A DNA stretch of 64,000 bases from a virus, in the IMG/VR virus record IMGVR_UViG_3300036852_000742, positions 1-64,000 of that record. One strand, given 5' to 3'. The notes under the pieces are model-generated. The model did not search any database and was not told the DNA's origin. It worked only from the letters and a program-made list of their open reading frames with translations. Below, one piece after another: positions 40,762 through 42,615 of this stretch; the stretch's first letter is position 1; the number at the start of each line of letters is the position of its first letter. Both the position numbers and the translations under genes were made by a program.

Positions 40762-42615
40762 GTGGCAATGGCGATCGCAGCGCCCTTTCTCTGCGAGCCA
40801 CATGGTGAGCTTGCACGGCCAGACAATGATCTCGTGGCAATGGCGATCGCAGCGCCCTTTCTCTGCGAGGCGTCAGGACGTCAGCTACTACAGGTCTCCG
40901 TCCGAGTGACAACGGCGAGCGCAGCGCCTCGAACTCTGCGAGCGGCCATGTCTACAGAGGCCGGCGCATCGTCGGTTCGACGCGACAATGGCGAGCGCAG
41001 CGCCTCTTTCTCTGCGAGTGCGCCATGGGTTTACGCGGACTCCTGGCGAGGTACGTGACGACGGCGAGCGCAGCGCCTCAAATCTGCGAGGTCCGGGCTG
41101 TCGCGTTCGTCATGGGTGACGAACGCGATCGCAGCGATCCTTCTCTGCGAGTACGTCGACGACTCCGGCGCCGAGGCGAGGCGGTTCAAGTGGCAATGGC
41201 GATCGCAGCGCCCAAAGACTGCGAGCTTAGCTCCTCGTCGTAGTACCCCTGCACTGCAAGGTGGCAATGGCGAGCGCAGCGCCTGAAATCTGCGAGCCGG
41301 TGATTCGGTGCGGCCGGCGTTGGGTGGTACCTGCATGTGACCATGGCGAGCGCAGCGCCTCAACTCTGCGAGAAGGGGCAGGGCCTGTCGCGCGTACCAG
41401 GCCCGCGCGGTGACCATGGCGAGCGCAGCGCCTCAACTCTGCGAGTCCCGCCAGCTTGACTACCCGCTAGCCTGGATCAGGCCGGTGACCATGGCGAGCG
41501 CAGCGCCTCAACTCTGCGAGTCTCCACCGGCGTCATGCTCACTTCGCGCAACCCCAAGGTGACCATGGCGAGCGCAGCGCCTCAACTCTGCGAGGAGGGT
41601 CTCCCGTAGCAGCTCGGTGCAGCGTGACAACGGCGAGCGCAGCGCCTGAAATCTGCGACGCTATATCGTGAAGCAGGCGCACCATTATGAGCGTGGTGAC
41701 AATGGCGAGCGCAGCGCCCCTCTTTCTGCGAGTACCTGAACCACGCCCGAGCGGCTTCCGTTGCCTGCGGCGTAGCAACGGCGAGCGCAGCGCCCTTTTT
41801 CTGCGAGTGCGTGTGCGGCGAGGCCGCAGTACTGACGCGACAGTGGCGAGCGCAGCGCCTAAAACCTGCGACTTGGTATCCCGATCCAGGCGGCCCGTGA
41901 GACCGCGTAAGTGACAACGGCGACCGCAGCGCCCTTTCTCTGCGAGGCTGCAATGAGTAACTACATGGATGTCCGGCGCAGGTAACGATGGTGATCGCAG
42001 CACCTCAAAACTGCGAGTGGATGGTCCCGATGTTGGTCGTGATCGAGGGCGCCGCGCGTGACAATGGTGATCGCAGCACCTCAAACTGCGAGGTCGTCAG
42101 CCGCACGGACGCGGCAAGGTTTGAGACCATGAGCGACAATGGCGATCACAGCGCCTCAAAACCTGCGAGCTGGATGCGGCGGCGGAGCATCTCCGCGTCG
42201 CGCGTACCGGCGACAATGGCGATCACAGCGACCACAAACTGTGAGATCCTCTCAACCGGTGCTAGCTTGCGCGCGACCGGTTGCGTGACGATGGTGATCG
42301 CAGCGCCCAAAACCTGCGAGCACGGCAGCGCCTCCAGCCCGACCGGTTGCGCGACGACGGTGAGCGCAGCACCCAAGAAGACACTGCGAGTTCGAGTACG
42401 TGTCGGCTCCTCCAAGGGCGACATGGGCGACGATGGTGAGCGCAGCGCCCAAAGTCTGCGAGTGATGGGGTGGCGCGAGCAGTACGACCGCATGCAGGTG
42501 GCAATGGCAATGGCGATCGCAGCGCCCAAAACCTGCGAGTCCATAGCTTGGATGGGTTACCACTCCGCGCTACGGCGCGACAACGGTGATCGCAGCGCCC
42601 CAACGATCCTGCGAG
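40762..42615 (+). CRISPR. CRISPR array, 26 degenerate repeats and 25 spacers
   Basis: Repeat consensus approx. GTGACAATGGCGAGCGCAGCGCCTCAAnnCTGCGAG (35-42 nt, mostly 36) starting at 40762, 40834, 40906, 40982, 41055, 41116, 41190, 41261, 41337, 41410, 41485, 41559, 41624, 41696, 41772, 41837, 41911, 41982, 42058, 42133, 42210, 42285, 42351, 42427, 42498, 42577; spacers 25-40 nt; 3' CGCAG/CTGCG stem. Confidence 0.95.

What the first reader, a model, noticed from the sequence alone, without database searches (positions are those of the whole stretch)
40762..42615. Repeats diverge along the whole array but keep the stem, with a compensatory base-pair change
Seen: only R1=R2 and R9=R10=R11=R12 are identical; the other repeats differ. 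Variation is concentrated in the 5' end and the loop (CCCTTTCT, CCTCAACT, CCCAAAAC, ACCCAAGAAGACA), while CGCAG...CTGCG is retained. R21 (42210-42245) has CACAG...CTGTG, a compensatory pair, and its neighbour R20 has the single-change state CACAG...CTGCG. Known: actively acquiring arrays usually have near-identical repeats that decay only at the trailer end. Inference: each unit is under selection as a functional guide, so the array behaves like an old, fixed guide library. Repeat divergence may also limit deletion by the phage's own Sak4-like recombinase. Standard CRISPR finders may miss or split it.
Basis: partly seen in the sequence, partly recalled or inferred. Interest (0 to 1): 0.8.

Follow-up and report, generated by a model that had tools for sequence, protein, structure and literature searches.

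The report
Phage Cas12m array with diverged repeats
A soil actinobacterial phage carries a Cas12m (DNA-binding, non-cutting type) gene followed by a 26-repeat CRISPR array in which 22 repeat versions differ, yet nearly all keep the small RNA pseudoknot that Cas12m is known to hold, so it looks like a working guide set whose repeats have drifted wherever the protein does not care.

Summary
At 40762-42615 there are 26 repeats of 35-40 nt, 22 of them distinct; only R1=R2 and R9-R12 are identical. An independent assembly of a soil metagenome run reproduces them with no differences. The array lies 128 nt downstream of a 683-aa Cas12m gene (type V-M) in an 81-kb actinophage or provirus with no cas1 or cas2.

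Variation is far from random. The 18 helix columns carry 16 minor alleles; the 18 other columns carry 115. A second helix (GGCG/CGCC) completes the stem-plus-pseudoknot scaffold solved for Cas12m crRNAs, and it also covaries: C-G becomes U-A in R18, R19 and R23, and U-G in R22, R24 and R26. The loop is G-poor (5% against 35% in the genome). Spacers are unique, 25-41 nt long, and show coding-like 3-nt periodicity.

Best reading: a functional Cas12m guide array whose repeats are constrained only by the effector, not by an integrase. "Old and fixed" is not shown. Identical repeat blocks, neighbour similarity and mosaic variants point to episodic growth or recombination. The anti-recombination idea is untested. 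No spacer targets and no RNA data were found. This is a new variant of a known kind, of moderate interest.

The parts
38582..40633 (+). cas12m (type V-M effector), 683 aa, P0001
   Evidence: PDB sequence search: Cas12m2 8hhl E 3.7e-73, GoCas12m 8pm4 E 1.2e-70. PADLOC Cas12u1 E 6.8e-103 over residues 3-670. Pfam Cas12f1-like TNB domain. RuvC positions H363 / G558-D559 / D658 and Zn-finger residues H626, C629, C648, C651 by alignment.
40634..40761 (+). 128-nt spacer region between cas12m and R1 (leader); no convincing promoter found
   Evidence: The consensus scan found no sigma-70-like site and one weak hairpin plus T-run at 40731-40752, which is within chance expectation.
40762..42615 (+). CRISPR array: 26 repeats (35-40 nt), 25 unique spacers of 25-41 nt
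40762..40869 (+). R1 and R2, identical, flanking unique spacer S1
41116..41151 (+). R6, the most defective repeat: stem pairs 9:23 and 10:22 broken (C.U, G.A); preceded by the shortest spacer (25 nt); among the two lowest model scores
41337..41594 (+). R9-R12, four identical repeats around three unique spacers (37, 39, 38 nt)
41982..42092 (+). R18 and R19: stem pair 11:21 changed from C-G to U-A (GGUG...CACC)
42133..42169 (+). R20: pseudoknot pair 16:37 in the one-sided state A.C
42210..42245 (+). R21: pseudoknot pair 16:37 compensated to A-U; stem pair 10:22 is G.A
42351..42390 (+). R23: 10-nt loop (4-nt insertion) and stem pair U-A; lowest model score
42577..42615 (+). R26, terminal repeat with a 9-nt loop
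42618..42689 (+). Strong hairpin directly after the last repeat, probably the terminator of the operon (no U tract)
   Evidence: RNA fold -51.7 kcal/mol, z = -4.2 against shuffles

Best explanation
This is the guide array of a phage-borne type V-M CRISPR-Cas12m system.

Mechanism. The + strand is transcribed with or just after cas12m. Each repeat folds into a small H-type pseudoknot. The 4-bp stem is GGCG/CGCC. The loop of that stem (K-CGCAG) pairs with the 3' CUGCG-A directly before the spacer. Cas12m binds this scaffold, cuts near the 5' end of the repeat and trims the guide to about 17-18 nt. The complex then binds PAM-flanked double-stranded DNA and blocks transcription or replication without cutting.

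Why the repeats differ. The element has no Cas1-Cas2 of its own. No integrase therefore constrains the whole repeat or keeps re-copying one master repeat. Each repeat drifts freely where Cas12m makes no demand: positions 2, 4, 6 and 8 of the 5' tail, the 5-10 nt loop, and the 3' two-thirds of each spacer. Both helices and the two invariant adenines are held by selection.

Shown here: the anatomy, the homology, and the non-random, pair-preserving pattern of variation. Taken from solved homologues: the fold of the scaffold, the processing sites and the non-cutting mode of action. Inferred: that this protein processes all variants, and how the array grew (episodic unit addition and/or recombination between repeat cores).
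For: Effector identity.

Match to solved Cas12m crRNAs. In Cas12m2, A(-24) is flipped out, G(-23) pairs with A(-2), C(-22) onward pairs with G(-3) onward, and the 5' end (-36 to -30) is disordered (PMC10442227). Here A13 (= -24) and A(-2) are invariant. Position -23 is G in 14 repeats, U in 11 (which gives U-A) and C in one (R17). C(-22)-G(-18) pairs with C(-7)-G(-3). PmCas12m has the same stem and pseudoknot, and is cut after nt 2-3 of the repeat and at guide nt 17-18 (preprint 10.64898/2026.03.26.714355). GoCas12m has a triplex plus pseudoknot (PMC11013384).

Variation pattern. Helix columns carry 16 minor alleles and the others 115, p=0.00025. Pair 11:21 is CG in 16, UA in 3 and UG in 3 distinct repeats. 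Pair 16:37 is GC in 20, AU in 1 and A.C in 1. All 3 A21 fall among the 6 U11 (hypergeometric 0.008). The loop has 8 G in 166 nt against 35% G in the genome.

Spacers and context. All spacers are at least 25 nt, longer than the 17-18 nt used. They show coding-like GC periodicity (0.329 against 0.233 shuffled, p=0.0005). There is no cas1 or cas2 in the 81 kb. No coding signal lies across the array.

Other Cas12m arrays behave alike. L001, a provirus, has 6 distinct repeats among 9, 100% paired, with AU, GU and GC at one pseudoknot pair. L007, L008 and L013 have loop or wobble variants.

An independent assembly agrees.
Against: There are no expression or processing data for this locus. No spacer target was found, so no PAM is known. 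Covariation rests on two pairs and perhaps three or four mutational events among paralogous repeats, so relatedness inflates the shuffle statistics. R6, R20 and R21 each have one or two broken pairs and may be weak or dead units. The residue aligned with Cas12m2 Asp485 is Gly558 (Asp559 follows), so even the DNA-binding role of the RuvC pocket may differ. No promoter was identified in the leader. A weak hairpin plus T-run sits just before R1.
Confidence: 0.7

Rival explanations
1. The array is dynamic and mosaic rather than an old fixed library. Units are added in bursts, by a host Cas1-Cas2 acting in trans or by another route, and are shuffled by recombination between the conserved repeat cores of related arrays. 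The diversity then records mixed ancestry more than slow in-place drift. This concerns origin and is compatible with the best explanation.
For: Identical repeats surround unique spacers (R1-R2, R9-R12). Neighbouring repeats are more alike than random (Mantel r=0.27, p about 0.001; mean adjacent difference 6.6 against 8.1 overall, p about 0.0004). The same loop type recurs far apart with different 5' halves (CTTTCT in R1, R2, R17; TGAAAT in R8, R13; CAAAAC in R22, R25), and all four allele combinations occur in 78 of 136 column pairs. The 3' end of S21 plus R22 resembles the 3' end of S22 plus R23 (88% over 40 nt, family D3). Other contigs in the same soil run carry similar but different repeats (loose ends). 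In L001 the repeat types are interleaved (A A B A C D B E F).
Against: Recurrent mutation in fast-evolving loop positions can also produce all four allele combinations. Spacer lengths of 25-41 nt are unlike the ruler-like products of Cas1-Cas2. No donor array and no host adaptation module were seen.
Confidence: 0.4
2. Repeat diversity is itself adaptive. Divergent repeats are favoured because they lower homologous-recombination loss of spacers in a phage that encodes its own recombinase.
For: An AAA_24 protein (the Pfam family that includes Sak4, from my own knowledge) is encoded at 25470-26384. Only 7 of 325 repeat pairs are identical, 21 share an exact run of 20 nt or more, and 255 share 15 nt or less.
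Against: Nothing distinguishes this from neutral drift under relaxed constraint. The four identical repeats R9-R12 persist. Milder heterogeneity also occurs in Cas12m arrays on metagenome contigs of unknown context.
Confidence: 0.15
3. The array is a decaying relic that no longer produces working guides. The conserved core only reflects too little time to erode.
For: There is no adaptation module and no identifiable target. Some units have broken pairs (R6, R20, R21). Spacer lengths are irregular.
Against: Erosion would hit helix and non-helix columns alike, yet the ratio is 16 to 115. Changes in paired columns are compensated. The strand-specific lack of G in the loop and the intact full-length cas12m both argue for use.
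Confidence: 0.1
4. The heterogeneity is an assembly artefact, or a chimera of strain variants.
For: It is a metagenome-derived record at modest depth (about 5-10x).
Against: A second assembler gives the same sequence with 0 differences over R2-R9 and R12-R26 and breaks only where repeats are identical. Chimeras would not yield pair-preserving changes.
Confidence: 0.03

Closest known systems
Type V-M CRISPR-Cas12m (MmCas12m2, GoCas12m, PmCas12m)
   Same: The effector is homologous over its full length. It has His at RuvC-I, Asp at RuvC-III and an HCCC zinc finger. Repeats are 36 nt with a stem and pseudoknot directly 5' of the guide, and the flipped-out A and the 3' A are invariant. No adaptation genes are present, and the array lies downstream of the gene on the same strand.
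   Different: Identity to the solved proteins is not reported by the search; the nearest library representatives outside its own clade are 36-47% identical. The protein is longer (683 aa against about 600) and has a clade-specific 28-aa His/Cys insertion. Gly558 sits under the second RuvC residue. The stem is 4 bp and shifted by one on its 3' strand. It is carried by a phage. 22 of 26 repeats differ, whereas published work describes one consensus repeat per system (PMC11013384).
MvCas12m locus of myxophage MV-1 (preprint 10.64898/2026.09.14.751636)
   Same: A phage-encoded Cas12m with an adjacent array, no cas1, cas2 or cas4, and no protospacer found.
   Different: MV-1 keeps a D-E-D RuvC triad, and has one consensus repeat and eight spacers. 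The host phylum differs. Here the triad is His-type and the repeats are heterogeneous.
L001, IMG/VR provirus contig with a Cas12m of 33% identity
   Same: A virus-classed contig with Cas12m followed by an array whose repeats differ from each other (6 distinct among 9). All helix pairs are kept, and A-U, G.U and G-C occur at one pseudoknot pair.
   Different: It is much less diverged (94% mean column identity against 78%). An extra ORF lies between the gene and the array. The covariation there is not significant on its own (207 of 500 shuffles).
Plasmid type IV and V-M systems, and virus mini-arrays used in competition between mobile elements (review PMC11656645)
   Same: An interference module without adaptation genes, carried by a mobile element. 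The proposed role is silencing of competitors by binding rather than cutting.
   Different: Targets here are unknown. The review does not describe repeat heterogeneity of this degree.

Membership tests
Type V-M CRISPR-Cas12m | Effector homologous to Cas12m over WED, REC, RuvC and TNB | tested here: met
   8hhl Cas12m2 E 3.7e-73 in two stretches covering residues 4-222 and 251-671. PADLOC Cas12u1 E 6.8e-103 over 3-670. 147 library representatives at E<=1e-30.
Type V-M CRISPR-Cas12m | Non-canonical RuvC centre (clade 2: His-Asp-Asp) that binds but does not cut DNA | tested here: inconclusive
   H363 aligns with His317 and D658 with Asp579. The column of Asp485 holds G558, followed by D559-E560-D561, in P0001-P0004 and P0006. 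The first Asp is lost as in clade 2. The second position is shifted or lost. Activity cannot be tested with these tools.
Type V-M CRISPR-Cas12m | TNB domain with an HCCC zinc finger | tested here: met
   Pfam PF07282 E 4.4e-07. H626, C629, C648 and C651 align with His549, Cys552, Cys569 and Cys572.
Type V-M CRISPR-Cas12m | Adjacent array of about 36-nt repeats whose 3' part forms a stem plus pseudoknot scaffold 5' of the guide | tested here: met
   26 repeats start 128 nt downstream on the same strand. Paired cells: stem 96.6%; five core pseudoknot pairs all but one cell. Positions match Cas12m2 and PmCas12m numbering.
Type V-M CRISPR-Cas12m | No adaptation module in the locus | tested here: met
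   No Cas1 (PF01867) or Cas2 (PF09827) match in the 81,120-bp record, with positive controls working. The record is about 83% complete by CheckV, so absence from the whole phage is not proven.
Type V-M CRISPR-Cas12m | Self-processing of pre-crRNA, no tracrRNA | not testable with these tools
   No RNA run holds the locus. No repeat-like copy on either strand outside the array.
Type V-M CRISPR-Cas12m | PAM-dependent binding of dsDNA that silences the target | not testable with these tools
   No protospacer was found, so no PAM could be derived.
Canonical, actively acquiring CRISPR array | Near-identical repeats, uniform spacer length, cognate Cas1-Cas2 | tested here: not met
   22 distinct repeats of 26. 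Spacers are 25-41 nt. No cas1 or cas2.

The most novel reading that the evidence does not exclude
Virus-borne V-M arrays evolve in a mode of their own. Without a dedicated integrase, they are built and reshuffled by recombination at the short conserved repeat core, and perhaps by a non-Cas1 route of spacer gain that gives 25-41 nt spacers. Every repeat then drifts under effector-only constraint. The result is a naturally non-repetitive, recombination-resistant guide library. It doubles as a natural mutational scan that defines the minimal Cas12m scaffold: two helices, two adenines and a G-free loop of 5-10 nt.
Probability: 0.3. Interest if true: 0.65.

Novelty: new variant of a known kind. Interest (0 to 1): 0.5.

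Why it matters
CRISPR repeats are normally kept uniform by two forces. Each new repeat is copied from its neighbour during acquisition, and both the integrase and the effector make demands on it.

This array shows what remains when only the effector's demands act. The two helices and two adenines of the Cas12m pseudoknot are held, and almost everything else is free to change. That gives three things.
- A natural list of 22 scaffold variants, which predicts which positions of the Cas12m guide can be changed. This is useful for building non-repetitive multiplex guide arrays for this compact CRISPRi and base-editing effector.
- A concrete case for asking how arrays without adaptation genes gain and keep spacers on phages.
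- A warning that repeat-identity-based CRISPR finders probably under-count such arrays in viral metagenomes.

Phage-borne Cas12m is itself rare. There was no match among 50,697 GenBank phage records, and one preprint claims a first case.

Tried and rejected
**Relatives with arrays**
The contigs of the closest homologues (P0002-P0004, 54-59% identical) could not be fetched.
- L004, which encodes P0002, ends 69 nt after the gene, before any array.
- A single-protein search of viral and genome collections found nothing.
- Profile searches gave only distant loci.

**Repeat-pattern scans of IMG/VR**
- One scan found nothing.
- A looser two-repeat pattern gave one chance hit inside a coding region (L030). 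The covariance model rejected it.

**Spacer targets**
- There is no self-match longer than 14 nt in the 81-kb genome.
- GenBank phages gave no credible hit.
- In plasmids, the best hit was spacer 22 against a Streptomyces DUF6884 gene (34 of 38, E 0.04). It has a 2-nt gap in the seed region and runs into repeat-derived flanks, so I rejected it.
- An exact 25-nt search of spacer 1 in IMG/VR found nothing.

**RNA evidence**: no RNA holder is listed for the locus.

**Rfam**: no family match in the window.

**Baseline from bacterial Cas12m loci**
- Cas12m was found in 2 of 401 sampled genomes of the class of the Mycobacterium genome G001, and in 4 of 401 of its family.
- The four mycobacterial loci fetched, and a M. 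intracellulare plasmid locus, show no recognisable array nearby. They gave no baseline for repeat uniformity.

**Promoter in the leader**: none was found by consensus scan. A repeat-like remnant just upstream of R1 (40727-40750) was considered but is not supported by the model search.

**Strand of spacers relative to coding sense**: 15 sense, 6 antisense and 4 ties, using a classifier that is right about two times in three on known genes. This is too weak to use.

**Host**: capsid relatives are only 30-40% identical and spread over many hosts. A WhiB gene and 69% GC point to Actinomycetota, no further.
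Full report
**What is there**

The window is the first 64 kb of an 81,120-bp virus record with 68.6% GC. IMG/VR classes it as a provirus, and CheckV puts completeness at about 83%.
- It has siphovirus-type genes: a tape measure protein at 49295-52084, a capsid/protease-like gene at 61484-62680 and an endolysin at 45292-46317.
- It also has a WhiB gene, a family matched in only one (Corynebacterium glutamicum) of the 14 control genomes. 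Together with the GC content this points to an actinobacterial host.
- Capsid relatives in GenBank phages are only 30-40% identical, and no nucleotide match exists. This is a new phage lineage.

**The effector**

An ORF at 38582-40633 (+) encodes a 683-aa protein.
- It matches the solved Cas12m2 (8hhl, E 3.7e-73) and GoCas12m (8pm4, E 1.2e-70) over almost its whole length.
- It matches the PADLOC Cas12u1 model at E 6.8e-103 and Pfam's TNB domain.
- By alignment it has His363 at the first RuvC position (His317 in Cas12m2) and Asp658 at the third (Asp579).
- It also has the HCCC zinc-finger residues.
- The column of Asp485 holds Gly558, followed by Asp-Glu-Asp. The closest homologues share this feature.
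- Cas12m2's His-Asp-Asp centre binds the non-target strand and does not cut (PMC10442227). A non-cutting, DNA-binding mode is therefore the expectation here, by inference.
- The family is large: 147 representatives at E<=1e-30.
- This clade is small. Four metagenomic proteins are 50-59% identical and a fifth (P0005) is 33% identical.
- No homologue exists in 50,697 GenBank phage records.
- No Cas1 or Cas2 is encoded in the 81 kb.

**The array**

The array starts 128 nt after the stop codon. There are 26 repeats between 40762 and 42615, separated by 25 unique spacers of 25-41 nt.
- A covariance model built from the repeats finds the same 26 and nothing credible elsewhere in the window.
- Directly after the last repeat lies a very stable hairpin (42618-42689, -51.7 kcal/mol, z -4.2), which probably ends the transcript.
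- The array is the distal end of a tightly packed + strand gene block. That block starts at 32686, behind a promoter-like site. It includes an anti-restriction-like gene and a methyltransferase.
- No promoter was recognised in the 128-nt leader.

**Check of the observation**

- 22 of the 26 repeats are distinct; R1=R2 and R9-R12 are identical.
- The 5' end and the loop vary while CGCAG...CTGCG stays.
- R21 has CACAG...CTGTG, and R20 has the half-changed CACAG...CTGCG.
- Logan contigs of a soil metagenome run reproduce R2-R9 and R12-R26 with no difference and break only at the identical repeats. The heterogeneity is therefore not an assembler's invention. The run is probably the sample of origin.

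The repeat has a second helix. GGCG (alignment columns 9-12) pairs with CGCC (columns 20-23) and encloses A13 and the strand K-CGCAG. That strand in turn pairs with CUGCG-A just before the spacer. This is an H-type pseudoknot, and it is the published Cas12m scaffold.
- In Cas12m2, A(-24) is flipped out, G(-23) pairs with A(-2), C(-22) onward pairs with G(-3) onward, and nucleotides -36 to -30 are disordered (PMC10442227).
- PmCas12m has a stem (-28 to -26 with -15 to -17) and a pseudoknot (-23 to -20 with -3 to -6). It is cut after nt 2-3 of the repeat and at guide nt 17-18.
- GoCas12m has a triplex and a pseudoknot.

Counted from the 3' end, the repeats of this window put the following at those same positions:
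- an invariant A at -24;
- G (14 repeats), U (11) or C (one, R17) at -23;
- CGCAG at -22 to -18;
- an invariant A at -2.

**Variation follows the structure**
- The 18 helix columns carry 16 minor alleles. The 18 other full columns carry 115 (Mann-Whitney p=0.00025).
- In the stem, pair 11:21 is C-G in 16 distinct repeats, U-A in 3 (R18, R19, R23) and U-G in 3 (R22, R24, R26). All three A21 lie in repeats with U11 (chance 0.008).
- In the pseudoknot helix, the only varying pair is 16:37 (G-C, A-U in R21, A.C in R20).
- On cells paired, cells changed on both sides and covariation score, the named structure beats 498 of 500 column shuffles. It pairs 92.7% of cells against 22-58% in slid registers.
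- These statistics are inflated by the relatedness of the repeats. The number of independent compensatory events is small, probably three or four.
- Three repeats have broken pairs: R6 (two stem pairs), R21 (one stem pair) and R20 (A.C).
- The loop (5-10 nt) is A-, U- and C-rich and has only 8 G in 166 nt, in a genome with 35% G. This strand-specific bias is what one expects if G in the loop would mispair with the C-rich helices.
- In the 5' tail, positions 1, 3, 5 and 7 are nearly fixed and positions 2, 4, 6 and 8 vary. C5 is invariant across other Cas12m arrays too.

**Spacers**
- All are unique. None matches the phage itself beyond 14 nt.
- They show a three-base GC periodicity (0.329) well above shuffles (0.233, sd 0.024, p=0.0005) and near that of real 37-mers from this phage's genes (0.395). 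They therefore look like captured pieces of high-GC coding DNA.
- No target was found in GenBank phages, PLSDB plasmids or IMG/VR (spacer 1 only). The one borderline plasmid hit was rejected.
- Spacer length varies far more than integrase-made spacers usually do. All are longer than the 17-18 nt that Cas12m uses, so indels in the discarded 3' part would be harmless.

**How the array got this way**

Simple decay is unlikely, given the above. But 'old and fixed' is not shown either.
- Neighbouring repeats are more alike than random (Mantel p about 0.001; adjacent difference 6.6 against 8.1).
- Blocks of identical repeats enclose different spacers.
- Loop types recur at distant positions combined with different 5' halves. 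All four allele combinations occur in 78 of 136 informative column pairs.
- The end of S21 plus R22 is duplicated, with changes, as the end of S22 plus R23.
- The same soil run holds other contigs with similar but different repeats.

Together this suggests episodic addition of units and recombination at the conserved core, on top of drift.

Only 21 of 325 repeat pairs share 20 nt or more of exact identity, and the phage has an AAA_24 gene. It remains untested.

**Other Cas12m arrays**
- A provirus contig (L001, Cas12m 33% identical) has nine repeats of six kinds. All pairs are kept, and A-U, G.U and G-C occur at one pseudoknot pair, in an interleaved order.
- Metagenome contigs L007, L008 and L013 show wobble or loop variants.
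- Within-array repeat polymorphism therefore seems common for V-M. This window is the extreme case seen (78% mean column identity).
- Papers on characterised systems describe one repeat per system. I found no paper describing this heterogeneity. The Molecular Cell paper that first described Cas12m is not held.

**Verdict**

The system is a type V-M CRISPR-Cas12m locus, a known kind. Phage carriage has been noted in a review for prophages and in one 2026 preprint. What is new is an almost fully non-repetitive natural array that keeps the pseudoknot. Interest is moderate.

Noticed in passing
window 39248-39331 (residues 223-250 of the Cas12m protein): A clade-specific 28-aa insertion with conserved His225, Cys227, Cys236 and Cys248 (WSHGC...GPPWPC...CP). 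It is present in P0001-P0004 and P0008 and absent from most Cas12m. It may be an extra metal site.
   Followed up: partly
window 40253-40264 (residues 558-561): In this clade the RuvC-II motif reads VVGDED where other Cas12m have VVDD. Gly lies under Cas12m2 Asp485.
   Followed up: partly
window 43357-44865 (-): A 502-aa TnpB (NCBIfam guided_TnpB E 1.7e-63; OrfB_IS605 and TNB domains) lies 740 bp downstream of the array. A Streptomyces plasmid shares 76.5% identity over 538 nt here. It may be an IS element next to the CRISPR locus.
   Followed up: partly
window 42271-42376: The 3' ends of spacers 21 and 22 share the 11-nt 3' end GACCGGTTGC preceded by a similar stretch, and the following repeats R22 and R23 are alike (88% over 40 nt). 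This is a partial unit duplication or recombination scar. Spacer 22 is short (30 nt).
   Followed up: partly
window 32607-34228 (+): The gene block that ends with cas12m and the array begins behind a promoter-like TTGCCC-17-TAGCAT and a hairpin with a GCUGGA loop. It contains an anti-restriction-like gene (32686-33186) and a methyltransferase (33578-34228). This looks like an accessory counter-defence island.
   Followed up: partly
window 25470-26384 (-) and 27256-27459 (-): An AAA_24 ATPase (the Pfam family that includes Sak4, from my own knowledge; E 1.2e-16) and a WhiB-family regulator (E 9.8e-23).
   Followed up: partly
L032 6785-7186 (M. intracellulare plasmid NZ_CP015268): A Cas12m-like gene annotated 'transposase' has no array within 5 kb. 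Instead, a 27-nt inverted repeat flanks about 350 nt of non-coding DNA just downstream. Three other mycobacterial Cas12m loci also lacked detectable arrays.
   Followed up: no
window 41055, 41700, 42311, 42342 (loose ends in run X1): Other contigs of the same soil metagenome match single repeats and then diverge. Related arrays from other elements appear to be present in the sample.
   Followed up: no
L005 4075-4414: A metagenome contig with a distant Cas12m also carries a separate array of six uniform repeats with a 61-nt period (a different repeat family), 4 kb upstream of the cas12m gene.
   Followed up: no
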